Part shown: positions 26,354-62,545 of the stretch, one piece after another | Position numbering within the stretch: position 1 is the first letter of the stretch | How the letters are laid out: each line of letters begins with the position of its first letter | Source of the DNA: Naegleria gruberi | Taxonomy: Eukaryota | Reading direction: 5' to 3' (one strand) | Assembly: GCA_000004985.1 (NCBI GenBank) | Contig: GG738904.1 | Length of the DNA: 64,000 nucleotides | Program-made: the position numbers and the translations under genes | The notes under the pieces: model-generated | What the model was told of the DNA's origin: nothing | What the model saw: only the letters and a program-made list of their open reading frames with translations | The model's database searches: none

Positions 26354-29300
26354 TTGGATTTCAACATGCAAGTTTCAGAACAACAAGTATCTGTAGTACT
26401 AACTCATCAACCACAATCATCATCAATATCTGAAGCGGATAATAATAATAATAATAATACCATTAACAATATAGATAATAATAATAATAGCAATAATAAT
26501 AATAATAATATAGAGGAAGATAATGATAATAATAATAATATTTACATGCTTTCATTCAATAATAGTGGATTAACACCTGCATTACCTGATCCGAGTCCTT
26601 CACCTCCACTTAAATCAACTGTTGCAGTAGTTGGTACATCATCACAACAACAAAACATGTCGAAATTATATTCCTCTCCTCCGAATAACATTAACAATCA
26701 ATTAGATTATTCACCAGTGAGGATTAGAACCATCAATTCGGCGACATTACCAACCAATAATAATATTAACAATAATAATGAAGACCGATCACTGATGATG
26801 ACAACAACAACATCTTCATCAACTGCACCTCCTCCACCTAGTTCTTATCAATATCCAATTCCAACAAGACCTACTACTACTAAATCTTCATCCGTGAATG
26901 AGAGTAATAATATGATGGAGGACAATTTCCCCAACACCATAGAAAGTAATGTGCGAACACAAGAACATTCCCAACAACAAACACACTACAAATCCTATCA
27001 TCACAATAATGAAAGAGAAGGAGAACGAGCTTCTTACTATCATCACTCCTATCCATCACAAAATTCCATAATGATGACAAATAATCATAATATCGAAAAT
27101 TGGAAAGGCTTGAAGGAAAACAGCAACAATCTATCATCCGCAGAAATTCAAAAAGAACAAGCGAACTTGGTTTACGGCACTCAATACCGCCAAAAGAATA
27201 GAAGTACACAACCACCTAGCAGCGCTTCTTACTTAGGATCAGTTGTTGAACGAGAAGAAAGAGGAGACGAAGAAGAAGAAGATTATCGTGTCTATCATCA
27301 TCAGCAACAACCACAGCAACAACAATATTTGAGAGAGAACTATTATCCTTCTCATCAGGGTAGTAGTACTACGTTGCCAAGCACTACTTCAATCTTGTTG
27401 CCAAGCCACGAAGCAAGGAATATCCAAAATTATAACAACCCTTCGCTACAAATAATTAATCAAAAGAATACCTCCACAAGTTCAACTTCACCTTCTTTAA
27501 ATTTTGCTACAGGTTCGTCTTCACAACAACCATTGCACGGAAGAAGAAATAGCAATTATCATCTGTACGATAATAATAACTATCACCAACAACACCAATA
27601 CGTGGAGAGAAATAATAACAATTTTCCAACAACTTCTCTCCATCAACGAACAACACCAACAACAATAGCAGAATATCAAGTTGGAGCTCCTAGTTATTCT
27701 AAACAAAGTTCAATGCAACAACAACCCTTTGTCATTCAGCCAAGTATGCAGCCCTCATCTGGAATACCGTCCTTTCACCAAGTTCACTCATCCTCCTCTG
27801 CCACCAATTCCTTCCATGTACCTTCCAATTATCAACAACATCATCATCATCAACCTCCACCACCACAACACTATCAACCACTTCCTCCGTCATCATCATC
27901 CTCATCAAATTATTTGAATCCTCCACACCAACAACAACAACAATCATCCTACTCTTCACCAAACAGTAACCAAACTAACTCATCCGAACCAAAATTACGT
28001 GTCTATAATTCAACATTAAAAGTTCCAGAAGGAATTTTTTCATACGATAACACAACACTAACTTGTGAACCTCATGGATTTAAGCCAAATGATAGAAGAG
28101 GAGCTCCACAAACAACTCACAGTGTCTACGTGAGTGATGTATTAGTAGTTACTTGTGATTTGGTTAACATGTCGAATCAACCAGGTGTTTTTCAAAATTG
28201 TACTGCGAGATTGGTTCATTTGATGGGAAAGAATGCTAAAAAGAAGAGAAAGGAAGGAGTCAGTGATCAAGATGATGGTTTAGACTCGGAGGATGATGAT
28301 TTGGATGATGGAAAGAAGAAGAAAAAGAAGAATAAGAAGAAGGATCAAGAAGATTCACTTGATGGTGATTTTGTTACTGATTTTTCACAGGCAGGAATGT
28401 TAGAGTCTTTTGAATTATTATCGGAACAACCTTGTCAAGAAAATGTTCAGAAAGGAAAGATTGTTTCCTCCCTCAAGGTTCCTCGTGTTAGGGGAAGAGA
28501 TTGTAAAACAAAGACTGGACAAATTCAAGTTATTAGATTTAAAGGAACAGAGAGAGAACATATTATTGCTGTGAGTGACTTGTTCTGGATAAGATCTAGA
28601 ACAAGAACAGAGATGGAAGTGAGAAAGTTCAAGAAACAACAGCAACAAACTCCACAACAATCATTGCCATCTCATCAACCACCTCAACAACAACCAATTT
28701 CTGTTCAATCACATGAAACTTCCAATCTTTCTTTGCATCATCATGCACAACAACTTTCTCATCCACCAACAATTCCATCTTCAAGTTTAAATCCTCCTCG
28801 TGAAAATTATCATAATCCACAATGGCCAAATATGCCAAATATTGTACAACCAAATTCACCAAGTACAAATGAGCATGCTGGTCTTCCTCCTAAAAAGAGA
28901 AGGAATAATAGTCCAGGAGGTGGTAATACACCAAACACTTATAGAGTTCCTTCAAATCCAGCTGCTTCAATTGTTCACTCATCAACAGGATATTTCCCCT
29001 CAAACAATATTCAACATCAAGAGAATGGTAAAGTACCAAATCTACACGATTCTCCTTCTCTTAGTCATCATCATCATCACGTGCCTTATCAACCATCGAG
29101 GAATGAACCAACTTATCATGAATTACTACAACGAGTTCACACATTAGAAGAAAAGTTGAATAGACTTGAAAGTAAATTGACTAGAGCTGGACATTTGTCA
29201 CCTGAGTTCCCAATGCCACCTGATAGTCAAACATTTTCTCCATTCCTCCCTAGTTCTGCAATTCAGCCACGTCCTGTTGAACCACCTAAAACTTTTGCAC

Positions 29301-29539
29301 CTTTCCCAATTGATGTTTTCATTAAAGACGATAAGAGAGGAGAAAACCCAACATTGCCTTCAGTGGTTTCGTCAGATTCCCAACCAGCAATTTTTAATCC
29401 AAAATCACCACTTCCAAGTTTCCCTTTTGATCCATCTGATTCATTCTTGAAGAATAGTTTCTCATCACCACCAGCTTTTACAAATCCAACATCGAGCAGT
29501 TCATCCGAGAGTGGAGGTGGCATGAAGAGAGAACGTTAA
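26354..29539 (+). CDS. Large N/Q/S-rich low-complexity protein with a unique central core (about aa 540-760) and a C-terminal coiled-coil segment. It may be a nuclear regulator.
   Basis: Uninterrupted ORF of 1061 aa with poly-N, poly-Q and Ser/Pro-rich tracts. The complex-sequence core is YNSTLKVPEGIFSYDNTTLTCEPHGFKPNDRRGAPQTTHSVYVSDVLVVTCDLVNMSNQPG...QVIRFKGTEREHIIAVSDLFWIRSR. It also has a KKKRK-like basic patch. Confidence 0.5.
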   Translation: MDFNMQVSEQQVSVVLTHQPQSSSISEADNNNNNNTINNIDNNNNSNNNNNNIEEDNDNNNNIYMLSFNNSGLTPALPDPSPSPPLKSTVAVVGTSSQQQNMSKLYSSPPNNINNQLDYSPVRIRTINSATLPTNNNINNNNEDRSLMMTTTTSSSTAPPPPSSYQYPIPTRPTTTKSSSVNESNNMMEDNFPNTIESNVRTQEHSQQQTHYKSYHHNNEREGERASYYHHSYPSQNSIMMTNNHNIENWKGLKENSNNLSSAEIQKEQANLVYGTQYRQKNRSTQPPSSASYLGSVVEREERGDEEEEDYRVYHHQQQPQQQQYLRENYYPSHQGSSTTLPSTTSILLPSHEARNIQNYNNPSLQIINQKNTSTSSTSPSLNFATGSSSQQPLHGRRNSNYHLYDNNNYHQQHQYVERNNNNFPTTSLHQRTTPTTIAEYQVGAPSYSKQSSMQQQPFVIQPSMQPSSGIPSFHQVHSSSSATNSFHVPSNYQQHHHHQPPPPQHYQPLPPSSSSSSNYLNPPHQQQQQSSYSSPNSNQTNSSEPKLRVYNSTLKVPEGIFSYDNTTLTCEPHGFKPNDRRGAPQTTHSVYVSDVLVVTCDLVNMSNQPGVFQNCTARLVHLMGKNAKKKRKEGVSDQDDGLDSEDDDLDDGKKKKKKNKKKDQEDSLDGDFVTDFSQAGMLESFELLSEQPCQENVQKGKIVSSLKVPRVRGRDCKTKTGQIQVIRFKGTEREHIIAVSDLFWIRSRTRTEMEVRKFKKQQQQTPQQSLPSHQPPQQQPISVQSHETSNLSLHHHAQQLSHPPTIPSSSLNPPRENYHNPQWPNMPNIVQPNSPSTNEHAGLPPKKRRNNSPGGGNTPNTYRVPSNPAASIVHSSTGYFPSNNIQHQENGKVPNLHDSPSLSHHHHHVPYQPSRNEPTYHELLQRVHTLEEKLNRLESKLTRAGHLSPEFPMPPDSQTFSPFLPSSAIQPRPVEPPKTFAPFPIDVFIKDDKRGENPTLPSVVSSDSQPAIFNPKSPLPSFPFDPSDSFLKNSFSSPPAFTNPTSSSSSESGGGMKRER

Positions 29540-30122
29540 ATGAAGTGAAATAAAAAATTAATTGTAAATTCAAATATGAAAATTGAAGTTTAGTTTGTAA
29601 TATGTTTGAGAATCCAACAAGTTCAAAGATATTAATGGTCCTTCCACCTTGTGTGTCATGTACTCTAGTGTAAAAAAATCAAAAAGGCTGTGTGAAAAGT
29701 GAGCTTAACTTTACAACATGTGATCGTTCAATGCGTGCGTACGATCTCCGATCTATTGAGAAGAAACCAGTTGTTGAAAATTGCAAACTTGAAGATTTAA
29801 CGTTTCGAAAAAAAATTCATGAGTAGTAACAAGTAGGCCGCTAATTTGCTTGCTAGAAAAGACTCTGATCACACACTATGTAAGTCATCATTCTTAAATA
29901 TCTTGGCAAGATATTAATTTCTACATTTCACCAATTTGCTTGTAAAAATTTACAAATTGCAATTTTAATGATCCAATGATAATAATAATGATCATCATCC
30001 GATACCTAATTAACTTGATCATATTAATACTACCATGATCATCAATGATGATATTGTACACTTTGTATGCAAATTGTCGTGATGAAAAATCTTGTCAAAC
30101 ACTTTTGGATTAATTTCCAAAT

Positions 30123-32723
30123 ATGGACTCTTTAATATTGGTCCTTTTTCTTGCATTACTCTCTGTGTTGATCGTCACCAAAACACTCAATTGGTTCTTT
30201 CTCTATCAACATTCCATTCAATATTGCATTTCCTCTCCTTTCTTAACCCAATTGACCAAAATCTTGAAAAAATCGATGAAATTTCTTATTGGGCTCTTGT
30301 TGTTCTTTGTTTGTTATTCGTGGTATTCTTCTTTCAAAATACTTGCCATTGCTCCGAATGAAAACTTTGAAAAATCCTTGCAATATCGGAATGCTTCCTC
30401 TTTCCAATTTCATATCAAATCTTCCATCCTTGCTGCTTGTCTAAATTCCCACCACTCTAACAATGCAAATACTTGCAAATCTTCCTCCACTCATAACCAT
30501 CGTGCTGATGTTAATGATGCTGAACCAATTTTTGAACTTTCCTGTCGTTGCACAACTTTAAATCCGATGAATAATGATCCTTCTCTCACCACCAAAAACA
30601 ACCTCGACCAAATATTGCAACAATACCAAAATTCATTGACTTTGGACTCCCCGAATCAATCGACCACCCCCAACTACTACGGCTCTTGTTCTGTTACTGA
30701 CAATCGTGATGATGATGCTTCTGGTGCTTCTTCCTCTGCTTCTTCCTCTGCAACTGCTACCTTGATTAATACCAACCAAAATAGTACTAAAAACTCTCTC
30801 AAAGAAGTAGAAGAAAAAACAACAACTCCCTCCAAACAACTCTTAGAAATAATGAATAAGAACGACTTGTATGCACTTGCTCCAAATCACTTCCTCTACA
30901 ATCCAATGTTGAATAAGGATACCGCATTCACAGTGGAGGATCGTGAAAAATTGGGTCTTCGTGGATTGTTGCCACCACACGTTGAGACCATTACTCATCA
31001 ATTGGTGAGATGCTTGAGACAATTCCGTAACTTTAAAAATCCATTGGACAAGTATGTTTACTTGATGAGTTTGCAAGGTAGAAATCAAACCTTGTTCTTT
31101 AAATTGTTGATTGATAACATGGTTGAAATGTTGCCAATTGGTAAGTTGATGATAATAATTTTGCATTCCAAAGTTTTTAACACATTCTCTCTCATCTGTG
31201 TGAAATTTACTTGTTATTTTGCTTAATACAAATAATAATGCTTCGGAACCACCACAACAAAACACAACATTCATTTACCACTCTTTTTAACATTATAAAC
31301 AGTCTACACACCAACTGTTGGTGATGCTTGTCTTCAATTCGACCAAATTTGGAGAGTTGCTCAAGGCATGTACATCTCATTGGAAGATAAGGGATCAATT
31401 TCTGCAATTTTGAAGAATTGGGAACCAAAGCAACCAGATATTATTGTCGTTTCCGATGGTTCACGTATTTTGGGTCTTGGTGATTTGGGTGCTAATGGTA
31501 TGGGTATTCCAATTGGTAAATTGAATCTCTATGTTGCTGCTGCTGGTTTCCATCCAGATAAGACTTTGCCAATTTGCATTGATGTTGGTACTAACAATCC
31601 AGGATTGTTGGAAGATGATTTATATTTGGGATTGAAGAGAAAGCGTGTTCGTGGACAAGAATTCTTTGATTTCATGAAGGAATTTATGATTGCTGTCAAG
31701 ACTACATGGCCAAATTGTTTAGTCCAATTCGAAGATTTCTCAAATGATGTCTGTTTCGATTTATTGGATCAATATCGTAATGAACAATTGTGTTTCAATG
31801 ATGATATCCAAGGTACTGGTGCTGTCATTGTTGCTGGTTTCATCAATGCTGCCAAGATTACTGGTAAGAGAACTTATCAACACAAATTATTATTTATGGG
31901 AGCTGGTTCTGCTGCCACTGGTGTCGCTGATCAATGTGTTGGTGTCATGAAATTGCAAGCTGAAGAAGATGGATTGAGCAAGGAAGAAATTGATGCCATG
32001 TCTGAACATTGGGTTTATTTGGTCGATTCTAAGGGATTAGTTACACAAACTCGTTCTGATTACGAAGAAATGCCACATCACAAGAAGAAGTATGCCAAGA
32101 AGGGTGATGAAACTTTGGGTAACTTCCAATCCAAATCTCTTTTGGAAATTGTTCAAAAGACTCAACCAACTGCTCTCATTGGTCTCTGTGGTCAATCTGG
32201 TGTTTTCACTCAAGATATCATTGAAGAAATGGCCAAGATTAACCAAAAGCCAATCGTTTTTGCCTTGTCCAACCCAACTAAGAATTCTGAATGTACTGCC
32301 AAGGAAGCTATTGAATATTCAAGTGGAAGAGCTATCTTTGCTTCTGGTTCTCCATTCGAAGATGTTACTTACAATGGAAAGACTTATCAATTGAGTCAAG
32401 GTAACAATTTGTACATTTTCCCAGCTTTGGGTCTTGGTGCTGTCGTTACCAGATCAAAGCACGTTTCTGATGTTATGATTTTGAGAGCTGCTCAAACTTT
32501 GGCCGATCTCACAAGCCAAGATAGATTGGACAATGGATTGTTGTATCCAAGTTTGACAAATATCAGAGAAATTGCTCAAAAGATTGCTGTCCAAGTTGGT
32601 AAACAAAGTGTTAAGGAAGGTCTTTCTCAATTGACTGAAGAACAATTACCAAAATCTGAAGAAGAATGGGTTAAAATTGTTAAGGATTATGTATATACTC
32701 CAGATTATGAGTCCAAATTGTAA
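30123..32723 (+). CDS. Malic enzyme (NAD(P)-dependent malate dehydrogenase, decarboxylating) in 2 exons: ?-31140 and 31303-32723. The annotated start at 30123 is the start of the open frame; the true start is uncertain.
   Basis: Hallmarks: LYNPMLNKDTAFTVEDREKLGLRGLLPP...EMLPI|VYTPTVGDACLQFDQIW...GSRILGLGDLGANGMGIPIGKL...FEDFSNDVCFDLL...FNDDIQGTGAV...GAGSA. The intron is GTAAGT...ACAG (31141-31302) with phase 1 conserved. Confidence 0.8.
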
Positions 32724-33081
32724 ATATTTCAACAATTAATTTAAACCAACTATTATAAACATTTAATATTTCACTGATATTATTTCACACACTTTCAATA
32801 TATTCTCCATTCCAATCGCAACAGCGTCCAACCATACTCAATTCTGTCCAATTCTATCTAAATGCAACCTGAGGATCTCCTTCACAACCAAGCGCATCAA
32901 CCAAACACTAGTCCGACCAGCACTACGATCCTAGTGCACTTCAATTAATATCATGTCATGAAATCTCTCCACCGTATTACTTTTAAACAAAAAGAAAAAA
33001 AATCTCCAATTGTTAACTGTACAAATCTTTCATCTTTTTCCGAAAGTTAGAGAATAATTTGAAAGAGAAGGTGAACACAAA

Positions 33082-34095
33082 ATGACTAGTCAAGAGAGTA
33101 ATGATGGATCAATTTCCTATGGATGGTGGATTGCCACTCTTTTAATAGGAATTGTCCTGATGAGAATATTGCAATTAATTATGAAATTGAAAAGACAAAT
33201 AAGCAAGGCTGGTGGAACTCCTGGTTATTGGCAATTATTGGCTGAAGGCTTGTTTATCATGCCAATTCTTTCGCCCTATATTGCTCATGGTAATTTCCCA
33301 GTGATTCAAGGATTGATTGCTAAGGAGGAAGAGAGAGCTAAGGGAAGTGATGAAAAGCAATTGATTATTCGTGTCAGTACTCCCTATAGAAATAATTATG
33401 TAATTTGGGATAAGGATTCAGTGAAGGAAGTTTTAGTTACAAAATCATCATCCTTTCCAAAACCTTTGGATTTTTATGAACCTTTCAATATTTTCGATAA
33501 GGATGCTACTTCAATTTTGACAGCTGCCGATGGTCCAGTTTGGAAGAATCATAGACATGTGGTGGCTCCTTCATTCTCAACTGGTAATTTGGTTTTTATG
33601 AGTCAAGTGACTGTAAAGACAGTTGATGCATTGTTTAGAACAAAGTGGAATAAGTTATTGGACCAGGATAGTAAGGGATTCATTATGGATATGGAAGATA
33701 CTACAGCTGTCACTCTTCAAATTATTGGTGAAAGTGGATTTGGTATGGATTTTGGTGTTTTCGATGAAACTAGCTCTGATTCTAAAAAGTTTAGAGAAGC
33801 ATTGAATATTGTCGTGAGAGTTGACTATTATGCCAGATTCTTCCTTGCTAAAATCCCATTCCTTTACAATGCAGTTTCTGATTATACTGGAAATACAGAA
33901 GCTCTCAAGGTGATGAGTGAAAAGCTTGAACAATGCATTTCTCAAAGAGTAGCCGAATTCAAACAAGATCCAGAAAAACCAATGAATGATTTATTGTCGC
34001 TCCTTGTTAAGGCAAACATGATGGATGAAAAACTCACACTCAATGAATTGAAGAGTAACAGTTACATCTTCGTAGTTGCAGGTCATGAGTATTGA
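33082..34095 (+). pseudogene. Cytochrome P450, N-terminal half only. It ends at the I-helix ...FVVAGHE and then Y-stop because an insertion follows.
   Basis: N-terminal membrane anchor plus P450 fold up to AGHE (I-helix AGHETT). It is a paralog of the N-half of the P450 at 55239-56286 (shared ...SDAYIFS/VVAGHE). The reading frame hits TGA at 34093-95, right after CATGAG. Confidence 0.6.
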
Positions 34096-34618
34096 AAATC
34101 AGAAGGTGTTCTTAAAGATGGTCACTGGTGCCATCAATGGTTTGATTCGTGGATTTTGGTTAAAGATATTATTCCACTTGAAGAACATTCTTCAATTATT
34201 AGGAGATGTTACAGCATGCTATGTGGAAAGTACCGTTAATATTTCCAAAGATATTTTGGAAATGTACAGTTTCATAATGAAGGAATCATTTTTGGAAAGA
34301 TTAAATTCAAGAATTGAGGAGAGAAATCTTTTATGTATTGATTTTGAAATTGTTAACAATGGATTGGTAGATAGGAATGCAGAGTGTTTTAACTCATGGT
34401 ATGAAAATGTATCTAAACATCTTATTGATTGGTCAAGTAAGGCTGTAAGTAATCGATTTGCAGAGTTTACAGAGTTAGTGGATGAAATTTTTGGTCAAGT
34501 TAAGAATGATTATGCAATGATTGCTGATAAAACTATTGAAAAGAGAACAATGGAGTATAATTTTATTACTGAAAAGAAGAGAAGATTGACAGAATTGATC
34601 AAAGAGTTAAAAAAGTAG
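34085..34618 (+). CDS. Hypothetical protein of 177 aa, predicted helical. Its ATG is embedded in the P450 His-Glu codons (cATGag).
   Basis: ORF MSIENQKVFLKMVTGAINGLIRGFWLKILFHL...RLTELIKELKK in frame +2 relative to the P450. I recognise no domain. Confidence 0.3.
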   Translation: MSIENQKVFLKMVTGAINGLIRGFWLKILFHLKNILQLLGDVTACYVESTVNISKDILEMYSFIMKESFLERLNSRIEERNLLCIDFEIVNNGLVDRNAECFNSWYENVSKHLIDWSSKAVSNRFAEFTELVDEIFGQVKNDYAMIADKTIEKRTMEYNFITEKKRRLTELIKELKK

Positions 34619-34639
34619 ATTGGTAATGAGTAAATTGAA

Positions 34640-35060
34640 TTGTGTCTGTGCAATTCTGATTGTATTCTTGTAAAGTGGTGATGGTACCTGTCAGGTACCG
34701 TCACAGGTACTTGGCAGGTACGATTTTTACCATCACAGGTACCGTCACAGGTACTTGGCAGGTATCACAGGTACCATCAGGTACCATCAGGTACCATCAC
34801 AGGTACCGTCACAGGTGCAAATGGTACCTGACAAGTACAATCACAGGTACCGTCACAGGTATCTGAATTTCCTCACAGGTACCATCACAGGTACTTGGCA
34901 GGTATCACAGGTACCATCACAGGTACCATCACAGGTACCGTCACAAGTACTTGGACCATCACAAGTACCCTTACAAGGACTTGTAAGGTGCTCAACACGT
35001 ACCTACAGTGTCTGACAAGTATGGTACCTCACAATAACCATCACAGCTACAACAAACACC
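34640..35060. repeat. Imperfect tandem minisatellite, about 20 units of CACAGGTACC(A/G)TCA or CAGGTACTTGG, each centred on a KpnI palindrome GGTACC. It begins with an inverted unit that can form a hairpin.
   Basis: Repeated caggtaccatca and caggtaccgtcacaggtacttggcaggtat. At 34676-34710, tgatggtacctgtca is the reverse complement of tgacaggtaccatca. It lies between the convergent 3' ends of ORF 34085-34618 and gene 35100-36299. Confidence 0.85.
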
Positions 35061-35099
35061 ATAACAAATACTTTTTATATCTCCTCCAATCAACTATAT

Positions 35100-36299
35100 T
35101 TATTTGAAATATTTGGATTTCTTAATAGGTCTATGGACATTATGATCATTTTCTGAATCAGAACTAATACCACCTCTATCTGAAGAATCTTCTTCAACAT
35201 CTTCTTCTTCATCATCCTCTTCAACTTCACAATGATCAGCATTTCCAAAGCAAATATTGTACCAAATTGGAGGACCTTCATCAGACTTGTTACAATCATC
35301 TTTATCCATTTGCTTTTCAAAGAATAACTCCATTTCAAAGGCATCAAGTTCTTCATTCAATTGAATAACATCCTTAACAGGTGGTTCTATGATGGCTTCC
35401 TCTTCAATATAACCATTCTCATTGTAACGATTGATGAGAAGAACTGTTTCCTTTGAGGTGTCAAATATCTCTTCTTCCTCCTTCTCATTAAAATCAATAC
35501 TTTCATCATCTGCTATAGTTGCAGATTCCTTCTTTTCATACTCCACAATTAAATTCAAACCACTAACATCTGGTTTGATTACAAGACTGGAAAGCGTGTC
35601 TTCATTTAGAGATGGCAAATCATCATATGGGAAAACAATACTTTGAGTTTCACTAACGGATGAGTATCCATCTTGATCTGCTCTAGCCATTTCGACAGAA
35701 TCATCATCAGTGAGTGCATCATCTTCTGTTAGAATCAATGGTTCATTAAATACATCAACTTGTTCTTCCATCTGAGTTTCTGCACTTGATATAATCAATA
35801 AAGGTTGAACCAATTCATATCTCTCATTGGTGTAAGAGTAAAGGTCAATGTCATCATTGTTTAATAACAAGTTTAACAATGTTGAATTACTAGTCTGTGA
35901 AAGCACTTTTCCCTTCTTACTAAACTCTCCAACAAATGCTTGGAAATTGAATTCACTATTACATTGTTCCAACTCTTTGAAATAAATCAAAGAAGGGTTC
36001 ATTTCAAGTAAATCTGCCAAATCTTCTAATTTACTATCCATGGATAAAAAGTCATCATGCTTCTTCTCCTTAAAAATCAAAAGTAAGAGACAAAGTGCAA
36101 AATAATCACAAGAGTAATCTGCTGATAATCCATTAATATCATCTTGATTGATAGGATCGTTACCAAGCCAAAAAGATGTCAATTCCTTCCTTAGCTTGAT
36201 ATCCAAATAACAGAAATCACTGACAACTTCACTATAAAATTTCTTCTTTACTAATTCTTCTACTAAACACCACTTGTTGAAATATGTATTGTACAACAT
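35100..36299 (-). CDS. Hypothetical acidic (D/E-rich) protein of 399 aa, divergently transcribed from the Myb-LAGLIDADG gene
   Basis: Uninterrupted ORF MLYNTYFNKWCLVEELVKKKFYSEVVSDF...EEDDEEEDVEEDSSDRGGISSDSENDHNVHRPIKKSKYFK. I recognise no domain. It shares a 345-bp promoter region (36300-36644, containing (AT)8 and CACAC..CTCGAG..GTGTG) with the downstream + gene. Confidence 0.45.
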   Translation of the reverse strand: MLYNTYFNKWCLVEELVKKKFYSEVVSDFCYLDIKLRKELTSFWLGNDPINQDDINGLSADYSCDYFALCLLLLIFKEKKHDDFLSMDSKLEDLADLLEMNPSLIYFKELEQCNSEFNFQAFVGEFSKKGKVLSQTSNSTLLNLLLNNDDIDLYSYTNERYELVQPLLIISSAETQMEEQVDVFNEPLILTEDDALTDDDSVEMARADQDGYSSVSETQSIVFPYDDLPSLNEDTLSSLVIKPDVSGLNLIVEYEKKESATIADDESIDFNEKEEEEIFDTSKETVLLINRYNENGYIEEEAIIEPPVKDVIQLNEELDAFEMELFFEKQMDKDDCNKSDEGPPIWYNICFGNADHCEVEEDDEEEDVEEDSSDRGGISSDSENDHNVHRPIKKSKYFK

Positions 36300-36644
36300 G
36301 ATGGATTATTCCTTTTTTTTCAAAAACAAAAGCTTTCACACAACCTCGAGTCGTGTGAAATGTCTCACACTCTAATATTTTAATATTTTTATAAGGCTTG
36401 AATATATATATATATATATTGAAAAGGGATTGACCGAAACTGGAAGACACATTAATTGGATATCTAAAGAGACCAAACAAATTTTCCTCAGAATTGAAGA
36501 GTCACGTCGCTACGTCCCTCAAGACATCCACACAACTTTGCAAATTAATACAATTGAGAAAAAAAAACTACTTTTATTTTCGACTCAACTTTGTTACAAG
36601 TAACAACACACATCAAATTCCAACACAGAACTCAATATAGCAGA

Positions 36645-38966
36645 ATGATAAGAAAAAACTGGTTAAAAGAAGAAGAAGATCTTTTGGTCAAATTGGTAAA
36701 GGAAAAAGGCCACAATTGGACTGAAATTGCTCCCAACTTCGATGTTACTCCAAATGCCTGCCACAAAAAGTATAAGGATTTGTTAAAGAATCTTGGCAGG
36801 AAAAGATCGTTCTGGACTGATGAAATGAAAGCTAATCTCCTTAAATTAGCAAAAGAATATGCCGATAAAGGAATAGAGAAATGGAAGATTATTGAGGAAA
36901 AATTAGGAAAAGAAGCTAAAGCTTGCCAACAGCATTTTTATTATTTAGTCAAACAGCACGGGTTGGATTCTAATGATTTCAACAGCGTCAGACCATTTTG
37001 GACCATGGAAGAGAAGCGCGAATTGACTGAGTTAGTCAATTTGCATGGAAGGAAGTGGAAGAAAATTGAGAAACTAATTAGCTGCAACAGAGATGCTCAT
37101 TCTTGTCAGAGCCAGTTTATGCTATTAGAAAGTAGACAGAATGATCCAATTGAAAAGAAGTTGAACGATATCTTTCAAGCAACGACTTCAGAGACAGATT
37201 TGAATGAAATCTCTCTTTACGAATTCTTCAATATCCCAACAAGTAGATACAATGGGGTTCCAGCATCGACTTTGTTGGTGGATCAAGCAGATGAAGTTGA
37301 TGAAGAAACATTTCATCGTTCTTACATGGCTGGAGATACTGAATTTAGTGTACGTGAGGTTGCAACTGGTAGATTGGTCAGAAAAACCATTGAGGAGATT
37401 TATCTTTCCAGTGGAACATATGAAACATATAGTATTGAATCTGGATTTAATGTGGAAGAAATTGGTAAGTTTCGTTTCAATTACTATTTTCAAAGAATAA
37501 TAATAATGAAAGAATGTAAATTGTTTCCAGCAAATGAAGTATTAGAGTTGAGTGCTACTTGTTTCAAAGCAAAATTATATTTCAATGAATGTGCTCGAAT
37601 TGTTGAAGAGAAACGTTTCATATTTTCCGAACAAGTTCAAGTCCGTCCAGATGAGTGCAGTAGTGTGAGATTACCTGTATCAGATCTTCAAGACAATATG
37701 TTCATCATTAATAACTATCAATTGAAATCCAAGGAAAAGCTTGTAAGAACATCATTACCATGTGGTCAACTTACTGACACCACCCAAACAAAAGAATGTA
37801 AGTATTTTATGAATTATTCTCATAATATTTTAAAGATTTTGACATTTTGTTCAGAACTTTCCCAACTCTAGTTGACTCCAAAGACAAACAGGGAGTCATG
37901 GTTCAACTATTGGGAGCCTATTTAGCAGATGGTGATGGAGGATACTTTAAATTGTATTTTAATGCCAAAAATGAGCAAGAACTTACCTATTATTTTACAG
38001 ATTTCTTAAAAGAAATTTGTGAATTGAATTCAGAGACAATAAGAGAGGATCTTAAATTCAAGAAAGAGGAAGAGTATGTCACCATTAAGCTCAATGATAA
38101 GAATGCTGACAAGGATATTGAACGAGTCTTACAAAATGGTTATCAAATATCCGGGTCCATACTTGTTGCACCTGCATGGTATGTTTTTCACTTTCAATAC
38201 ATTTTTACTAGTAACAAATAGTACTGGCTTACACAGATTTTTAAAAGAAATAGAATTGTTATGTAATAAGTATAATGGCAGTTACCAAACTAGAAAGAAT
38301 TTCTCTTCCATCTTCAACATTACAAATTTTGGTATGTTTAGCTTGTACAAATTTTTCGAAGGTTCTGTACAAGGAGATGGCACATTAGAGAGTAATCGTG
38401 TAACGTTTGGTCAGAATTGTTCAATTTCAGATACTCACCAACAGTACTTTAATCAGGTCCACCATTGTGCAACCATGCTTGGGTTAAAGACTGGCGTGGG
38501 TAAAGTGTGTGAAGAAACTACAGGTTTGAAAATGACTGGTAAGAACATGACCATTTTTGAAAGTGAAGGACTTGAGAAAAAGAAAGTAAATGCAGATGTT
38601 GTGTTTAGACCATTTAATCTTACAGTTCAAAGATTAATAGGTGAATCAATGAAGAAGATGTACTGTTTCAAGAAGAGTAATCACTCCTTCCCAATGTTTA
38701 ATGGAATGATAGTGCAAAATGTTGATACTGATCTAGTTTCTGCTAAAATATGTTATGGGAATAGATGGGAAATTCGTGAAATGGACAACTATGAATCTGC
38801 TGCCACTTTCTGCTTGAAGAAATATATTGCTTCCTTAGGGTTTCCAAGTGACCGTATGACAAGAAATGCTGTAAGAAGATTAATACTAAAAATAGAAGGA
38901 ATAGTATCTGTTAAAAGAAAGCAAAAATCAAACAAGGAATCAAACAAGAAAGTTAAAACACAATAA
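36645..38966 (+). CDS. Fusion protein with three N-terminal Myb/SANT-type repeats and a C-terminal two-motif LAGLIDADG endonuclease-like domain. Exons: 36645-37464 (or read-through), 37531-37801, 37855-38178, 38222-38966.
   Basis: Myb repeats: WLKEEEDLLVKLVKEKGHNWTEIAPNF..Y, FWTDEMKANLLKLAKEYADKGIEKWKIIEEKL..F, FWTMEEKRELTELVNLHGRKWKKIEKL..F, with W-x18-22-W-x18-(Y/F) spacing. LAGLIDADG motif 1: VMVQLLGAYLADGDGGYFKLYF (37907-37945). Motif 2, about 130 aa later: SLYKFFEGSVQGDGTLESNRVTF (about 38352-38390). Introns: GTAAGT..CAG (37465-37530, in-frame and optional), GTATTT..TTCAG (37802-37854), GTATGT..ATAG (38179-38221, short). Confidence 0.5.
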
Positions 38967-39085
38967 CATTTCAATTAAAGAATATATTTACTGAACTTTA
39001 TTAAATGACTTTTTATTTCTGAATAAACAAAAGTATATTGAGCACTTTTGCATCCATTTGAAAATTGACAATCATTTCTGCTGAA

Positions 39086-39162
39086 ATGGTCATGTAAGAA
39101 GTATGAATTATGTCATTCTGGAAACTCTTCGTATTCATCCACCTGTAACATGTGTTTAGAGT
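39086..39162 (+). pseudogene. Degenerate P450 K-helix fragment (..NGHVRSMNYVILETLRIHPPVTCV*) just inside the right end of the insertion
   Basis: ETLRIHPP matches the P450 ExxR / HPP K-helix consensus. MNYV matches the paralog at 56520-56560 (IMNYVNAVIMET), not the adjacent C-half (MDYIHGCVMECLRLHPPV). It is out of order for a P450, which runs I-helix then K-helix. Confidence 0.45.
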
Positions 39163-39178
39163 TGCTAAGAAGACAACC

Positions 39179-39842
39179 ACATGAGGTTCGTGTTTTATAA
39201 TTAATTTTACAAGTGTTTAACAAAATATTTAAGACGACTGCCACAACCATGCAATGGTTAATGTACGAATTGTCCAAGCGTCCAGAAGCTCAACAAAAGG
39301 CCAGAGAAGAAGCAATCAGAATTGGAGGAGGTGACAATGTTTTGAGAGCTCCAGATTTTGATGATTACAACAATATGGACTATATTCATGGTTGTGTAAT
39401 GGAATGCTTACGTCTCCATCCACCAGTCGTTTCCATGGTAAAAACCTGTGCCAAATCTACCAAAATTGGAAAAACAAGCATTCCAAAGGGATCTTGCATC
39501 TATGTAAATGCCAAGGCCTGTCACTTGTACGGTGAAGATTTTAACACCACTGAATTTACTGGTGCTCAATTCGCTCCAGAAAGATTTTTGGATAAGGATT
39601 TCAAACAAAAGGTTCAAACAAGTGGAGCATGGTTCCCATTCAATATGAGTAATAGAAAATGCATTGGTTACATGTTTGCCCAAATTGAATTGTGTATCAT
39701 GTTGTGTAGAATGTTGCAATTTTATGAATTCAAATTGTTGAATGATGAAAGTAAACCAGCTGAGAAGGTTGAAGATCTTCCTGGTATTACCTTTAGACCA
39801 TCTTCTAATTTGAAGGTTTTGGTAACAAGAAGAACAAAATAA
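39179..39842 (+). CDS. Cytochrome P450 C-terminal half. A 7-nt micro-exon ACATGAG (39179-39185, the His-Glu of AGHETT) is followed by a GTTCGT..TTTAAG intron (39186-39233) and exon 39234-39842 (TTATTMQWLMYEL...heme loop FPFNMSNRKCIGYMFA).
   Basis: Contains ECLRLHPP (ExxR), PERF and FxxxxxRxCxG (FNMSNRKCIG). Together with 33082-34089 it would form a complete P450 if the insertion were absent. Confidence 0.6.
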
Positions 39843-55238: not shown

Positions 55239-56928
55239 ATGGCTTTAAGCGAAATTATTTTGGGAATTGTTTGCGTTTTTGCTGCAATTCTTCTCTTCTT
55301 CCTCATTTCAATTTATAATAATTATAAGAAAGTGAGTCACATTCCAGGTGCTTTCCAATTCTTCTTGACTTTTAAGAATATTCCAATCATTTCACCTTAT
55401 TTGAGTTTCGATGGACACAAGAGAATGGAACAATTGGTCAAAACTCACGGAGATCCAAAAACTGGACTTGTCAGATTATCCATGTTCGATAGAAATATGG
55501 TTGTAGTTTCAGATAGAGACATGTTGAAGGAATTGTTGGTCGTTAAGGGTGGAATTTTCATCAAATCTTGGAAATTATATGAAGTTTTCAATGCTTTCGG
55601 CAAGAATATCTTATCAATTCTCGATGGTACCAGTGATTCATGGAAAAATCATCACAAAGTAGCTTCAGGTGCTTTTGCTTCTAAAAATTTGGAATACATG
55701 TCAAGAGTTGCCTCAAAATCTTTGGATTTGTGTAAGGAAAGTAAATGGGATGGTGAAATGGAAAAGGCATTGAAGGAAGGAAAGGAAGGTATTATTATTG
55801 ATACCAATGCTGATTTTAGTGATATTACTTTGGGTAAGTTTCGAATTTTGACATTGTCATGTTGACCTTTCGAATAATAGACGTTCTTGGTAAGGCTGCT
55901 TTCGGTTTGGACTTTTCCATCTTTGATGAAACTAACCCAGAAGGTAGAATTTTCAGAAAATCCCTCGAAAAGATGTTTACCACTGGTGTAATCTTAAAAC
56001 GTTTCGTCGGATTAAATCCAGTCCTTTCCTGGGCTTTCCCATGGGCTTGCAAATATACTGGTTTAGATAAGGCAGTAAAAGTTGTGAGTGATAAGTTGGA
56101 TGCAATCATTGCGGAAAGAACTCGTGAAGTAGAATTGCGTGGAATGGAAGATGGAAACACATCCGAAACTGGTGTTGAAGAAAGAAAGGATTTGTTGAGT
56201 GTTTTGGTTGAAGCCAATTTCATTCAAAAGGGAATCTTGTCAGGTGATGAACTCAAATCTGACGCTTATATCTTTTCGCTTGCTGGGTATGTATTCGAAT
56301 TTTAAACTATTTGTCCTAATTTATTTTCATAGACATGAGGTTCGTATTTGCAAATTTACAATTTTTTGTAATGATTTTTTTATTTGAAATTTTAGACAAC
56401 TTCAACAACTTTACAATGGGTTTGTTACGAATTATCAACAAAACCAGATATTCAAAATAAGATTCGTGAAGAGATTGATTTACATCTCGGAAAGGGTGTA
56501 AATGCCAGAGCTCCAAACTTTGACGATTATCCAATTATGAACTATGTCAATGCTGTCATTATGGAAACTGCAAATAGAAGTGATCGAAACTGGGATAAAC
56601 CTTTAGAATTCATTCCAGAAAGATATCCAATGAATGCTGAAGAACAATTGAGAATTCAACATGATTTCACTTGGATTCCATTCTCTATGGGTAATCGTAA
56701 ATGCATTGTAAGTACTTTTTGAAAATTTCACAAGTTTACAAAATTTTTCAGGGTTTCAAGTTTGCTCAAATTGAAGCTTTTACAATTCTTGTAAGATTAC
56801 TTCAATTCTATGAATTAGGATTGGATAATGATGAATCTAATCCAAAGGATCAAATTGTTGATGTTCCTGGCGTTACAGTTCGTCCAGGAAATTGTAGAAT
56901 TATTCTCAAACCAAGAAAGGATCTTTAA
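55239..56928 (+). CDS. Cytochrome P450 paralog, 5 exons including a 7-nt micro-exon: 55239-55833, 55881-56286, 56333-56339, 56396-56707, 56752-56928. It lacks the K-helix/ExxR segment and may be a pseudogene or a divergent P450.
   Basis: ...YIFSLAG|HE|TTSTTLQWVCYEL...FSMGNRKCIG|FKFAQIE. The micro-exon ACATGAG is flanked by GTATGT..ATAG and GTTCGT..TTAG introns. Relative to 39234-39842 about 38 aa are missing (LHPPVV...HLYGED), which leaves METANRSD where ExxR should be. Confidence 0.55.
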
Positions 56929-59565: not shown

Positions 59566-62545
59566 ATGTCTTGTACTTTAGAAGATATTTTTCAAGACAC
59601 ACAATTCAAAAAGTTCAACGATAAAGGAAAACCGTATTGTGAAGGAGTTGTACATTTAAAACAAGAAGACTTATACAAATTTTTAGGAATAAAAGAAGTT
59701 AAAAAGAAAAGGATATTAGAAACCTCCGAATTAAATCGATGTAAAAATGNNNNNNNNNNNNNNNNNNNNNNNNNNNNNNNNNNNNNNNNNNNNNNNNNNN
59801 NNNNNNNNNNNNNNNNNNNNNNNNNNNNNNNNNNNNNNNNNNNNNNNNNNNNNNNNNNNNNNNNNNNNNNNNNNNNNNNNNNNNNNNNNNNNNNNNNNNN
59901 NNNNNNNNNNNNNNNNNNNNNNNNNNNNNNNNNNNNNNNNNNNNNNNNNNNNNNNNNNNNNNNNNNNNNNNNNNNNNNNNNNNNNNNNNNNNNNNNNNNN
60001 NNNNNNNNNNNNNNNNNNNNNNNNNNNNNNNNNNNNNNNNNNNNNNNNNNNNNNNNNNNNNNNNNNNNNNNNNNNNNNNNNNNNNNNNNNNNNNNNNNNN
60101 NNNNNNNNNNNNNNNNNNNNNNNNNNNNNNNNNNNNNNNNNNNNNNNNNNNNNNNNNNNNNNNNNNNNNNNNNNNNNNNNNNNNNNNNNNNNNNNNNNNN
60201 NNNNNNNNNNNNNNNNNNNNNNNNNNNNNNNNNNNNNNNNNNNNNNNNNNNNNNNNNNNNNNNNNNNNNNNNNNNNNNNNNNNNNNNNNNNNNNNNNNNN
60301 NNNNNNNNNNNNNNNNNNNNNNNNNNNNNNNNNNNNNNNNNNNNNNNNNNNNNNNNNNNNNNNNNNNNNNNNNNNNNNNNNNNNNNNNNNNNNNNNNNNN
60401 NNNNNNNNNNNNNNNNNNNNNNNNNNNNNNNNNNNNNNNNNNNNNNNNNNNNNNNNNNNNNNNNNNNNNNNNNNNNNNNNNNNNNNNNNNNNNNNNNNNN
60501 NNNNNNNNNNNNNNNNNNNNNNNNNNNNNNNNNNNNNNNNNNNNNNNNNNNNNNNNNNNNNNNNNNNNNNNNNNNNNNNNNNNNNNNNNNNNNNNNNNNN
60601 NNNNNNNNNNNNNNNNNNNNNNNNNNNNNNNNNNNNNNNNNNNNNNNNNNNNNNNNNNNNNNNNNNNNNNNNNNNNNNNNNNNNNNNNNNNNNNNNNNNN
60701 NNNNNNNNNNNNNNNNNNNNNNNNNNNNNNNNNNNNNNNNNNNNNNNNNNNNNNNNNNNNNNNNNNNNNNNNNNNNNNNNNNNNNNNNNNNNNNNNNNNN
60801 NNNNNNNNNNNNNNNNNNNNNNNNNNNNNNNNNNNNNNNNNNNNNNNNNNNNNNNNNNNNNNNNNNNNNNNNNNNNNNNNNNNNNNNNNNNNNNNNNNNN
60901 NNNNNNNNNNNNNNNNNNNTTACATACTGTTCACACAAGAAAACAGAATGATAAAGTATGTGTAGATAAATTACCAGAAAAAGTAATGATTAAATTGTCA
61001 ATGGATGGTAGAGAATTTGGAAATTTACGAACAGTTGTAGTTACTTTGAATATTTTAAATTTACATTTATTCGGAACACAAGAAAGAGACTGTGTTTTCC
61101 CAATTCTAATGTATATAGGTGAAGAGAAAGATATTATTAATTATATAACTGAAATTGAAAAAGAAGTTATTGAACTTTCTACCAAACATATTACTATCAA
61201 AGAAAACGAGCATGATGCTACACTATCACTTGAAAATACAACCCAAACAATTCCATTAGAATTCTATTGGGTGAGTGATTTAAAATCACTTGAATATTGT
61301 TCATTATTGAAAGAACATGCTATGTTTTGTCCTTTCTGCAACATTAAGAAACAAAATTCATTGTCTGGGATTTGTTCTGAAAATAGTAGAAATTTACAAC
61401 ACAAAATGGGTGTTAAATCATCCAATATTTTCATATGCATTTTGCATATGGATGAACGAATTACTGAATATATTTTGAAAATGACCTTAAAAACTTCGGA
61501 ACTTGAAAAGCAAATGAAAACCAATATTTGTTCATTAGAAGGTTTTGCTGATTTTAATTTTCATTCATCAAGTGTTTTAGTGAAAGATACAATCGAAGAA
61601 GAAAATGCTCTCACAGTTAAGGAATATTCATTTATGTTATCTGGCGGGCATTGTAATAAGCTTTTTGGATCTTTTGATAAAGTTTTTGGATTTTTGAAAG
61701 ATTCAAACTCAAATATGTATAATATTTGGAAAAAATACAAATCAATTAGACAGTGGTTGTATTATACAAATGAAGATTTGGAAAAGAAATCATTAAAGGA
61801 TTGGGAAAATTTTGATTCTGAGTTAAATGAATGGAGATTGCTTTTTGTTCTACAAAAAGCTGATAGTGGAAGAATAGGAGATTACATTCATATTGCCACT
61901 GCACATCTTTATGACTTGCTTTCAACTTATGGAAGTCTGGTTCCTCTTTCAAATCAAGGTGTAGAAAGTTCTCATCAATTAGATTGTTTGATTATGGAAA
62001 GAGGGACAAGTAAGGGTAAAATGTCTATTGGTACCAAAAAAGCTCAAGCTGGCTCCTCAAAACCAAACGTGGAAACTGTATCCAAACCTGCTTCCCATAC
62101 TCTTGAGTCTAGTGATCTTGATAATGAGCAAGAACATAAGGAATTTAATTATGAATCATTTATTAAGAAGACAGAATCTTGTGACTGGAATGATTTATTC
62201 CAAGTTTGTCAAATCATGCTGAAGAAACTTAGAAAGTTGTATTTATCTTTTACTTGTGAAGAAGTACTATTTGTCCGGTTAGAAAGAAGGACTGGTAAGG
62301 TAATAAGAAAAGATTGGACAAGAGACATTTTAACTATGTCTCCCAACTTTACTCTGCCTATCCGAAAACCAACCAATGTTCTCATTCAAAAACCAGATAA
62401 CATTAACACTGAAGTGATATCTCCACAGCTTGCTCCATCCCAAGATGTTCCTAAAAGAACAGTTGAACTCAAACAATCCCAGGAATATGGATTGGTTGTG
62501 AATGGTGATGATGATGGGTTGATGAATGATGATGTCTTCTATTAA
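59566..62545 (+). CDS. Large protein interrupted by a 1.17-kb N gap (59750-60919). It may be related to Mutator-superfamily transposases, judged from one C-terminal motif.
   Basis: The open frame before and after the gap shares frame continuity only by assumption. The post-gap 540 aa include CPFCNIKK...ILHMDERI and ...IATAHLYDLLSTYGSLVPLSNQGVESSHQLDCLIME (compare the Mutator/IS256 E-motif SNxxxESxN/H). The call is weak. Confidence 0.3.

What the first reader, a model, noticed from the sequence alone, without database searches (positions are those of the whole stretch)
39086..39185. Out-of-order P450 K-helix fragment carried at the right edge of the insertion, derived from a different paralog lineage
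Just inside the insert's right end, a degenerate frame reads NGHVRSMNYVILETLRIHPPVTCV*. That is an ExxR/HPP K-helix remnant sitting upstream of the I-helix micro-exon, so the order is impossible for a contiguous P450. Its MNYV signature matches the other paralog (IMNYVNAVIMET at about 56530), not the adjacent C-half (MDYIHGCVMECLRLHPPV).

This looks like flanking host DNA co-transferred from an earlier residence of the element in another P450 gene. Homing and gene conversion typically co-convert flanking sequence in this way.
Basis: partly seen in the sequence, partly recalled or inferred. Interest (0 to 1): 0.6.

Follow-up and report, generated by a model that had tools for sequence, protein, structure and literature searches.

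The report
Second-hand P450 scrap on inserted DNA
A roughly 75-base decayed piece of a different cytochrome P450 gene sits at the right tip of a 5-kb multi-copy DNA element that recently split a Naegleria gruberi P450 gene, most likely as flanking DNA carried over from the element's previous location.

Summary
Window 39085-39159 reads NGHVRSMNYVILETLRIHPPVTCV*. After a 2-nt deletion the homology continues as VFRVAKKTTT to about 39179.

It is a real P450 K-helix relic. A nucleotide profile of the "B" paralog lineage hits it at E=7e-7. Alignment z is 5.5 (0 of 1000 shuffles). The adjacent P450 A half gives no significant match.

The window is Naegleria gruberi. A 98%-identical metagenomic contig carries the same locus with an uninterrupted P450 A, so the insertion is real (34090-39179, or to 39233). 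The inserted DNA is bracketed by a CATGAG repeat and abuts a 27-nt tract with 10 substitutions (background 0.6%). Two of its genes recur 95-99% identical on another scaffold.

The relic is as B-like as the resident B gene, is already damaged, and differs from resident B. Resident B lacks most of this segment.

- The "MNYV" argument is weak.
- The "micro-exon" in A is a duplicated exon end next to an intron-like 48 nt.
- The endonuclease identity is unproven: motifs only, all profile and fold tests negative.
- The second element copy could not be read.

The parts
33082..34089 (+). P450 gene A, 5' exon. It ends ...GCA GGT CAT GAG (I-helix AGHE).
   Evidence: Pfam p450 positions 37-276. 98.1% identical to the unoccupied allele L005 up to 34088.
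34066..34089 (+). Hyper-divergent tract abutting the insertion. It has 9 differences in 24 nt against the unoccupied allele, plus 1 in 39234-39236. Six of the ten are consecutive synonymous third positions.
   Evidence: One search gives 10 differences in 27 nt against 9 in 1412 elsewhere in the CDS. Poisson P about 5e-15.
34084..34089 (+). Left copy of the 6-bp direct repeat CATGAG. Its ATG also opens the first ORF of the insert.
   Evidence: Sequence.
34090..39179 (+). Inserted DNA, 5,090 nt. If the 48-nt tail was imported too, the insertion runs to 39233 (5,144 nt). It is absent from the unoccupied allele.
   Evidence: L005 and L006 join 34088/34089 directly to 39234. There are no terminal inverted repeats and no other copy in the window.
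34085..34618 (+). ORF of about 178 aa, predicted coiled coil, with no family match.
34683..34950 (.). 12-nt tandem repeat array (GGTACCATCACA-like) inside the insert. It is also present in the metagenomic fragment L007.
35100..36299 (-). ORF of 399 aa, acidic, with no family match. A 99%-identical copy lies on a 573-kb N. gruberi scaffold.
36645..38966 (+). Gene for a protein with three Myb repeats and two LAGLIDADG-like motifs (LLGAYLADGDGG, FFEGSVQGDGT). Introns at 37465-37530, 37798-37835 and 38179-38221. It equals N. gruberi D2VWA0. A 95%-identical copy, D2V8Z8, lies on the 573-kb scaffold next to the ORF399 copy.
   Evidence: The endonuclease assignment rests on motifs only (negative; low confidence).
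39103..39179 (+). THE FINDING: a decayed K-helix relic of a B-lineage P450, (M)NYVILETLRIHPPVT / 2-nt deletion / VFRVAKKTT. It is the right-most part of the inserted DNA.
39088..39094 (+). It may be a trace of an earlier target copy.
   Evidence: five + strand copies in 64 kb. Post hoc and only suggestive.
39179..39191 (+). 13-mer ACATGAGGTTCGT, containing the right copy of CATGAG (39180-39185) and an unusual GTTCGT splice donor. It is identical to the micro-exon and donor of paralog B at 56333-56345.
   Evidence: exactly two matches in the window, 0.04 expected.
39186..39233 (+). 48-nt intron or intron-like tail (GTTCGT...TTAAC...AAG) at the GHE|TT codon boundary. It is absent from the unoccupied allele.
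   Evidence: Introns occupy the same position in paralog B and in a metagenomic A-type P450, L008. Beyond the donor there is no significant similarity to B's intron.
39234..39842 (+). P450 gene A, 3' exon (TTATTMQW... to the stop codon).
   Evidence: Pfam p450 positions 276-453. 98.8% identical to the unoccupied allele.
55239..56928 (+). P450 paralog B. Exons 55239-55833, 55881-56286, 56333-56339 (7-nt micro-exon ACATGAG), 56396-56707 and 56752-56928. The spliced ORF is intact (498 aa) but lacks 37 aa (LRLHPPV...DIYS) at junction 56569|56570.

Best explanation
The fragment is a dead piece of a B-type cytochrome P450 gene from the N. gruberi lineage. It arrived in P450 gene A as the right-hand tip of a 5-kb piece of inserted, multi-copy DNA. 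That DNA carries a Myb/LAGLIDADG-like gene, a 399-aa ORF, a coiled-coil ORF and a repeat array.

Proposed history. The element earlier sat in or beside a B-type P450, so that the K-helix region of that gene lay just to its right. When the element was copied or moved into gene A at the end of the I-helix exon (GGT CAT GAG|), about 75 nt of that old right flank came along. That is why a K-helix piece now lies upstream of A's I-helix-to-C-terminus half.

Shown: the relic is P450, B-type, damaged, and at the terminus of a real, recent insertion of repeated DNA.

Inferred: it was linked to the element before the insertion into A, and the earlier site was a P450.

Two sub-models remain open. (T) The element landed with a 6-bp CATGAG duplication at the exon-intron boundary of an A allele that already had the 48-nt intron. 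(H) The whole right end (relic, ACATGAG and intron) and the 24-nt left tract were copied in one gene-conversion event from an occupied paralog.
For: P450 identity and lineage. nhmmer E=7.2e-7; blastn 2.6e-7 and 6.9e-7 to the B orthologues against E=2 to A. z=5.5 against shuffles. The best two of 120 P450s are the B orthologues.

N. gruberi-lineage origin with a coding history. The relic is 66.3% identical to the N. lovaniensis and N. fowleri B genes, while resident B is 62.5-62.8% identical to them. Mismatches concentrate at third codon positions, with 20/28, 21/28 and 14/27 matches by codon position.

Older than the insertion and not copied from resident B. The relic has a frameshift, has 3 mismatches in the 21 nt it shares with B, and B lacks the rest. 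By contrast, A's flanks differ from the unoccupied allele by only 0.6%.

Real insertion. The unoccupied allele is seen in two assemblies of one metagenome run, is syntenic with the malic-enzyme gene, and is 98% identical over 6 kb.

Repeated DNA. Both the Myb/LAGLIDADG-like gene and ORF399 have adjacent 95-99% identical copies on another scaffold. An 89%-identical truncated piece occurs in the metagenome that has the empty site, and a third paralog at 33% identity exists.

Break and repair signature at the site. There are 10 substitutions in 27 nt, P about 5e-15. A CATGAG direct repeat brackets the insert.

Link of the right end to B-type genes. The 13-mer is shared only with B's micro-exon and donor.
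Against: The second element copy's flanks could not be read. N. gruberi proteins are not in the contig index. So it is not shown that the relic belongs to the element rather than being picked up at the moment of insertion.

No terminal repeats and no recognisable transposase, integrase or endonuclease domain were found.

The relic does not begin at the I-helix target site, as WHO-type relics do. It begins about 230 nt downstream of that site in gene coordinates. An earlier residence at the same I-helix site therefore needs an extra internal deletion, and the only trace of that is a 7-mer, GGTCATG.

The lineage call rests on about 80 nt.
Confidence: 0.6

Rival explanations
1. Filler DNA. When the 5-kb DNA was joined into a break in gene A, the repair machinery primed on a short microhomology (ACA or CA). 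It copied about 80 nt from a B-type P450, such as an allele of paralog B 17 kb downstream, before sealing the right junction. On this reading the relic was never part of the element.
For: B lies on the same strand 17 kb away and is the closest known sequence in the 21 nt that can be compared, at 18 of 21. The junction ...ACC ACA|TGAG shares 2-3 nt with both partners. B carries a 111-nt deletion overlapping the relic's template region, with CT microhomology, which shows that breaks have been repaired there.
Against: A fresh copy should be nearly identical to its template. The relic has a 2-nt deletion and 3 of 21 mismatches to resident B, while the insertion itself looks young, with 0.6% flank divergence. 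Present-day B lacks most of the template. Templated fillers are usually shorter and drawn from within a few hundred bp of the break (established knowledge of polymerase-theta end joining, not tested here).
Confidence: 0.2
2. No mobile element is involved. A one-off segmental duplication of a 5-kb chromosomal stretch, which happened to adjoin a B-type P450 pseudogene, was pasted into a random break in gene A.
For: No transposase, terminal repeats or verified endonuclease were found. Only two near-identical copies are documented in the reference genome.
Against: There is a third, truncated, 89%-identical piece in another strain whose A site is empty, and a fourth, 33%-identical paralog. The insertion point sits exactly on a codon/intron boundary and is flanked by a hyper-divergent tract. 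It also lies inside a 31-nt window that holds five different intron positions across related P450s. Together these argue for a recurrently targeted site.
Confidence: 0.12
3. Local partial duplication of the adjacent A gene's own K-helix, since diverged.
For: Proximity: A's own K-helix is at 39380-39440.
Against: There is no significant nucleotide similarity to A (E=2; 145 of 300 shuffles reach the score). The diagnostic residues VFRxAxK match B and not A's (I/M)VKxCxK. The segment is absent from the unoccupied allele.
Confidence: 0.01
4. Chance resemblance or assembly chimera.
For: The Pfam score alone is below threshold. The scaffold contains gaps elsewhere.
Against: E=7e-7 and z=5.5. The nearest N run is more than 20 kb away. 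The gene models in the insert match deposited N. gruberi proteins.
Confidence: 0.03

Closest known systems
Host-gene relics in WHO element clusters of Torulaspora yeasts (FBA1 3' fragments beside LAGLIDADG 'weird HO' genes; bioRxiv 10.64898/2026.08.13.744650, read)
   Same: This is a nuclear element that is neither intron nor intein and carries a LAGLIDADG-type motif gene next to a protein-coding host gene. Occupied and unoccupied alleles exist. An out-of-order, decaying fragment of a host-type gene lies beside the element gene. The sequence at the insertion site is unusually divergent.
   Different: WHO elements replace the 3' half of FBA1 and keep it functional. Here P450 A is simply split and the 5' exon runs into a stop. 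WHO relics begin at the cleavage site and come from the same host gene. This relic starts about 230 nt downstream of the site and comes from a different paralog. WHO proteins have a C-terminal zinc finger, whereas this protein has N-terminal Myb repeats. Endonuclease activity is unproven here.
Flank transduction or gene-fragment capture by mobile DNA (L1 3' transduction, Helitron end-bypass capture; my own knowledge, not tested)
   Same: A short piece of DNA from the previous location sits at one terminus of the new copy, in the element's orientation.
   Different: There is no reverse transcriptase, poly(A) tail, Rep/helicase, 5'-TC/CTRR-3' ends or A^T target. A 6-bp direct repeat is present instead.
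Co-conversion of exon flanks during group I intron or intein homing (my own knowledge)
   Same: A short tract of dense substitutions directly abuts the insertion in the occupied allele.
   Different: Co-converted flanks stay in the correct gene order. The K-helix relic is out of order, so simple co-conversion cannot produce it. The element is not spliced at the RNA or protein level.
Cytochrome P450 K-helix / ExxR region (Pfam PF00067, positions about 324-351)
   Same: E-T-L-R followed by H-P-P-V, then the R-x-A-x-K-x-T-T strand region. The closest matches are the Naegleria B-lineage P450s.
   Different: It is a fragment of about 25 codons with a frameshift and no flanking P450 sequence. It is not a gene.

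Membership tests
Cytochrome P450 (PF00067), as a gene fragment | Match to the family profile at K-helix positions with an ExxR motif | tested here: met
   ETLR is present. Pfam p450 is the only hit, at positions 324-351, but only E=0.03. The B-lineage nucleotide profile gives E=7.2e-7, and z=5.5 against shuffles.
Cytochrome P450 (PF00067), as a gene fragment | Belongs to the B paralog lineage rather than the A lineage | tested here: met
   Protein scores are 92 and 89 for the B orthologues against 64 for A. blastn gives about 1e-7 against E=2. Based on about 80 nt only.
Cytochrome P450 (PF00067), as a gene fragment | Intact reading frame, which a functional exon would need | tested here: not met
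   A 2-nt deletion follows HPPVT, there are stops in both frames, and no splice sites flank it.
LAGLIDADG homing endonuclease (the protein encoded at 36645-38966) | Two LAGLIDADG dodecapeptide motifs about 100-150 aa apart | tested here: inconclusive
   LLGAYLADGDGG and FFEGSVQGDGT lie about 140 aa apart in my gene model. The first is conserved as GLYMADGN in the distant paralog P0131. This is a match by eye only.
LAGLIDADG homing endonuclease (the protein encoded at 36645-38966) | Significant match to a LAGLIDADG profile or to a solved LAGLIDADG structure | tested here: not met
   Pfam, PHROGs, NCBIfam and PDB sequence and profile searches are all negative. The AlphaFold models are too poor to search (pLDDT 34.5 and 38.9).
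Homing genetic element (intron, intein or WHO type) | Occupied and unoccupied alleles of the same host gene | tested here: met
   The unoccupied allele L005/L006 is 98% identical and syntenic.
Homing genetic element (intron, intein or WHO type) | The host gene stays functional after insertion (spliced out, or half replaced) | tested here: not met
   The 5' exon runs into TAT TGA with no GT donor. The only in-frame cryptic route would replace the conserved I-helix Gly with ELLRRQP (my reading). The deposited model is a 337-aa truncated protein.
Homing genetic element (intron, intein or WHO type) | The encoded endonuclease cleaves the unoccupied site | not testable with these tools
   This needs expression of D2VWA0 and a cleavage assay on ...GTCATGGTTATTGCCGGCCACGAAACTACTGCC...
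Homing genetic element (intron, intein or WHO type) | Other copies occupy the homologous site of related genes | not testable with these tools
   The second copy's flanks are unavailable. The 13-mer shared with B's I-helix is only a hint.
Cut-and-paste DNA transposon | Target-site duplication | tested here: met
   CATGAG occurs at 34084-34089 and 39180-39185 if the 48-nt tail is A's own intron. A 6-bp repeat could also be microhomology.
Cut-and-paste DNA transposon | Terminal inverted repeats and a transposase gene | tested here: not met
   No inverted repeat joins the two ends. No transposase domain was found.

The most novel reading that the evidence does not exclude
N. gruberi harbours a lineage-specific nuclear selfish element built around a Myb/LAGLIDADG-like protein. 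The element repeatedly targets the conserved I-helix codons (A-G-H-E|T-T) of cytochrome P450 paralogs and hops between them, dragging scraps of its last host. The K-helix relic would be one such scrap. Its break-and-repair scars would seed new short spliceosomal introns and micro-exons at that site. Three observations would fit: the five different intron positions within 31 nt across six related Naegleria P450 genes, the 7-nt micro-exon of paralog B sharing a 13-mer with the element's right end, and the hyper-divergent tract in the unoccupied allele.
Probability: 0.12. Interest if true: 0.85.

Novelty: new variant of a known kind. Interest (0 to 1): 0.55.

Why it matters
Out-of-order scraps of host genes are among the few sequence-only clues to where a mobile element has been. 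Here the scrap ties a recent presence/absence insertion in one P450 gene to a different P450 paralog.

If the encoded protein proves to be a site-specific nuclease, this would be a WHO-like element outside yeasts. WHO-like means a homing element that is neither an intron nor an intein. It would lie in a protist nuclear protein-coding gene family.

It would also give a concrete, testable locus for two questions: how such elements change host, and whether their scars become introns. If the protein is not a nuclease, the result is an ordinary case of a pseudogene fragment carried by an inserted duplication.

Tried and rejected
1. Extending the relic leftwards to an I-helix C-terminal remnant (LQW..YEL at 39081-39110). 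Local alignments to four genes were no better than shuffles. A blastn hit to N. fowleri A2 (E=0.002) included intron sequence and is not trusted.

2. Extending the relic rightwards through the 48-nt tail, as the rest of the 111-nt segment missing from B. This is not significant (z=1.4 and 0.2). The length coincidence (107, 109 and 111 nt) is dropped.

3. B's two I-helix introns as remnants of the relic or of the element ends. Apart from the 13-mer there is no significant similarity.

4. The relic as the very piece deleted from B. Rejected, because it overlaps 21 nt that B retains and differs at 3 of them.

5. Verifying the endonuclease. Pfam, PHROGs, NCBIfam and PDB sequence and profile searches were negative. 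Two AlphaFold runs gave pLDDT 34.5 and 38.9, so no fold search was run.

6. Finding the second copy's flanks. Exact look-ups of P0002, P0123 and P0131 were not on record. A scan of JGI metagenomes and a scan of viral contigs found no relatives.

7. Terminal inverted repeats or other copies in the window: none.

8. A rescue splice for gene A. The only in-frame route inserts ELLRRQP in place of the I-helix glycine, and I judged it non-functional.

9. Direction of the 27-nt tract. Comparison with five other P450 I-helix regions does not say which allele is derived.

10. Literature. Two full-text searches found no report of such an element in Naegleria.

Full report
WHAT IS THERE. The window is nuclear DNA of Naegleria gruberi. 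The genes in and around the region match deposited N. gruberi proteins at 97-100%.

A P450 gene, here called A, is split. Its 5' exon (33082-34089) matches Pfam p450 positions 37-276 and ends ...GCA GGT CAT GAG, then runs into TAT TGA. Its 3' exon (39234-39842) matches positions 276-453 and begins ACG ACT GCC (TTATTMQW). A second P450, here called B, lies at 55239-56928.

IS THE FRAGMENT REAL? Yes, on four lines of evidence.
- Pfam alone is weak. p450 is the only hit, at the right positions, at E=0.03-0.08.
- I fetched the intronless B-lineage genes of N. lovaniensis and N. fowleri and built a nucleotide profile. nhmmer over the whole window finds 39104-39193 at E=7.2e-7, aligned to the K-helix columns.
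- blastn gives 2.6e-7 and 6.9e-7 to those genes, against E=2 to the neighbouring A exon.
- A global alignment beats all 1000 dinucleotide shuffles, z=5.5.

Of 120 P450s from all of life, the two best protein matches are those two B orthologues.

Aligning the DNA shows a 2-nt deletion after HPPVT. The homology then continues as VFRVAKKTTT, against VFRAARKNTT in the orthologues, to about 39179.

The relic is 66% identical to the foreign B genes. That is slightly more than resident B's 62.5-62.8%. Mismatches are concentrated at third codon positions. So the relic was part of a working B-type gene in the N. gruberi lineage until fairly recently.

IS THE INSERTION REAL? Yes. A cluster look-up turned up a 478-aa protein that reads straight through the I-helix (...VIAGHETTATTMQW...). 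It is encoded on a 7,990-nt metagenomic contig and on an independent assembly of the same run.
- The contig is 98.1% identical to window 28093-34088, malic-enzyme gene included.
- It is 98.8% identical to 39234-39661.
- Nothing lies between these two stretches.

Relative to that allele, the window has 5,144 extra bases (34090-39233).

Ten of the 27 bases around the junction differ between the two alleles, against 9 of 1,412 in the rest of the coding sequence (P about 5e-15). Six of the ten are consecutive synonymous third positions.

The extra DNA holds four features:
- a coiled-coil ORF;
- a 12-nt repeat array;
- a 399-aa ORF on the minus strand;
- a three-intron gene for a protein with three Myb repeats and two LAGLIDADG-like motifs.

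The last two genes recur side by side, 99% and 95% identical, on a 573-kb N. gruberi scaffold. An 89%-identical truncated piece occurs in the same metagenome that has the empty site. A 33%-identical paralog sits on a small scaffold. So the inserted DNA is a repeated, lineage-specific family. Outside the Myb repeats it has no relatives outside N. gruberi among 1.8 billion representative proteins.

ANATOMY OF THE RIGHT END. The relic (39103-39179) is followed by CATGAG (39180-39185), which repeats the last six bases of A's 5' exon (34084-34089). Next comes a 48-nt stretch that looks like an intron (GTTCGT...TTAAC...AAG). Then comes A's 3' exon.

The 13-mer ACATGAGGTTCGT occurs twice in the window, against 0.04 expected. 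One copy is here. The other is in paralog B, where ACATGAG is a true 7-nt micro-exon between a 46-nt and a 56-nt intron. Beyond the donor hexamer, the two introns are not significantly alike.

An intron at exactly this codon boundary also exists in a metagenomic A-type P450, which has a 17-nt micro-exon. The N. lovaniensis and N. fowleri A genes have an intron 8 nt downstream. N. fowleri A2 has one 14 nt downstream. The B orthologues have none.

This leaves two readings.
- (T) The pre-insertion A allele already had the 48-nt intron. 5,090 nt then landed at the exon-intron boundary with a 6-bp duplication. The unoccupied allele later lost the intron and diverged at the site.
- (H) The left tract, the element, the relic, ACATGAG and the intron were all copied in from an occupied paralog by gene conversion.

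I cannot decide between them. In both readings the relic is the right-most foreign sequence.

WHAT THE RELIC MOST LIKELY IS. It is B-type, not A-type. It is already broken. It differs from resident B at 3 of the 21 comparable bases. Resident B lacks most of its template, because B has an in-frame 111-nt deletion (LRLHPPV...DIYS) at 56569|56570. The insertion itself looks young, with 0.6% flank divergence.

The simplest account is that the relic was already attached to the element's right end and came from an earlier site in or beside a B-type P450. Simple co-conversion during homing cannot by itself put a K-helix piece upstream of the I-helix. An extra deletion or an illegitimate junction at the earlier site is needed. 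The junction ...ACC ACA|TGAG has 2-3 nt of microhomology. A GGTCATG 7-mer lies 9 nt before the relic, which might be what is left of an earlier I-helix target copy (post hoc).

The main rival (0.2) is filler DNA copied from a B-type gene at the moment of insertion. The same relic on the second element copy would exclude that rival. A plain segmental duplication with no mobility gets about 0.12. Duplication of A's own K-helix is refuted. Chance or misassembly is unlikely (0.03).

COMPARISON WITH KNOWN SYSTEMS. The closest described situation is the WHO element clusters of Torulaspora. There, LAGLIDADG genes sit beside FBA1 with decaying FBA1 3' fragments, occupied and unoccupied alleles exist, and the target site evolves fast.

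The differences are substantial. WHO elements keep the host gene working by replacing its 3' half, and their relics begin at the cleavage site and come from the same gene. Here the host is disrupted, the relic starts about 230 nt downstream of the site, and it comes from a paralog.

Membership of the encoded protein in the LAGLIDADG family is not established. Only the two motifs support it, and every profile, sequence-to-structure and fold attempt failed. Transposon hallmarks other than a possible 6-bp duplication are absent.

VERDICT. The fragment is a second-hand B-type P450 scrap at the tip of a recent insertion of repeated DNA. I rate it a new variant of a known kind, namely host-gene relics accompanying nuclear selfish DNA, with moderate interest (0.55). 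It is a good entry point to a possibly new protist element, but the mechanism and the earlier host remain inferred.

Noticed in passing
window 34066-34089 and 39234-39236, compared with L005 5977-6012: There are ten substitutions in the 27 nt that flank the insertion point between the occupied and unoccupied alleles. Background divergence is 0.6%. Six of the ten are consecutive synonymous third positions. This could be a conversion tract or a fast-evolving target site.
   Followed up: partly
window 56287-56395; L008 2708-2800; L001 ~7105; L009 ~2101; L004 ~3526: The P450 I-helix looks like an intron hot spot. Five different intron positions (-17, -7, 0, +8, +14 relative to the GHE|TT boundary) fall within 31 nt across six related Naegleria P450 genes. 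Two of those genes have micro-exons of 7 and 17 nt. Three related genes have no intron there.
   Followed up: partly
window 56569|56570: Paralog B has an in-frame 111-nt deletion that removes the R of ExxR and the HPPV...DIYS region (37 aa), with CT microhomology at the junction. Its spliced ORF (498 aa) is otherwise intact. It is likely a freshly inactivated gene, and no deposited protein for it appeared in the search.
   Followed up: partly
window 34085-34618: The first ORF of the inserted DNA (MSIENQK...) starts at the ATG contained in the left CATGAG copy, which is the host's His-Glu codons read in another frame.
   Followed up: no
window 34683-34950 and L007 ~840-1097: A 12-nt tandem repeat (GGTACCATCACA-like, with KpnI-site-like GGTACC cores) is conserved between the element here and an 89%-identical truncated copy in a metagenome.
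   Followed up: no
window 39088-39094: GGTCATG, identical to the Gly-His codons at the insertion target (34081-34087), lies 9 nt upstream of the relic. It may be a trace of an earlier target copy or it may be chance (five + strand copies in 64 kb).
   Followed up: partly
window 36645-38966; proteins P0001, P0002, P0131: This is a Myb plus LAGLIDADG-like protein family. Outside its Myb repeats, the only relatives found among 1.8 billion representative proteins are N. gruberi paralogs. The copy on the 573-kb scaffold has a shorter gene model that lacks the first LAGLIDADG-like motif, so it may be degenerate.
   Followed up: partly
window 985-6105, 7514-13723, 59750-60919: Large runs of N (assembly gaps totalling 12.6 kb) occupy the left fifth of the window and one later site. 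Long ORFs listed there are artefacts of the Ns.
   Followed up: no
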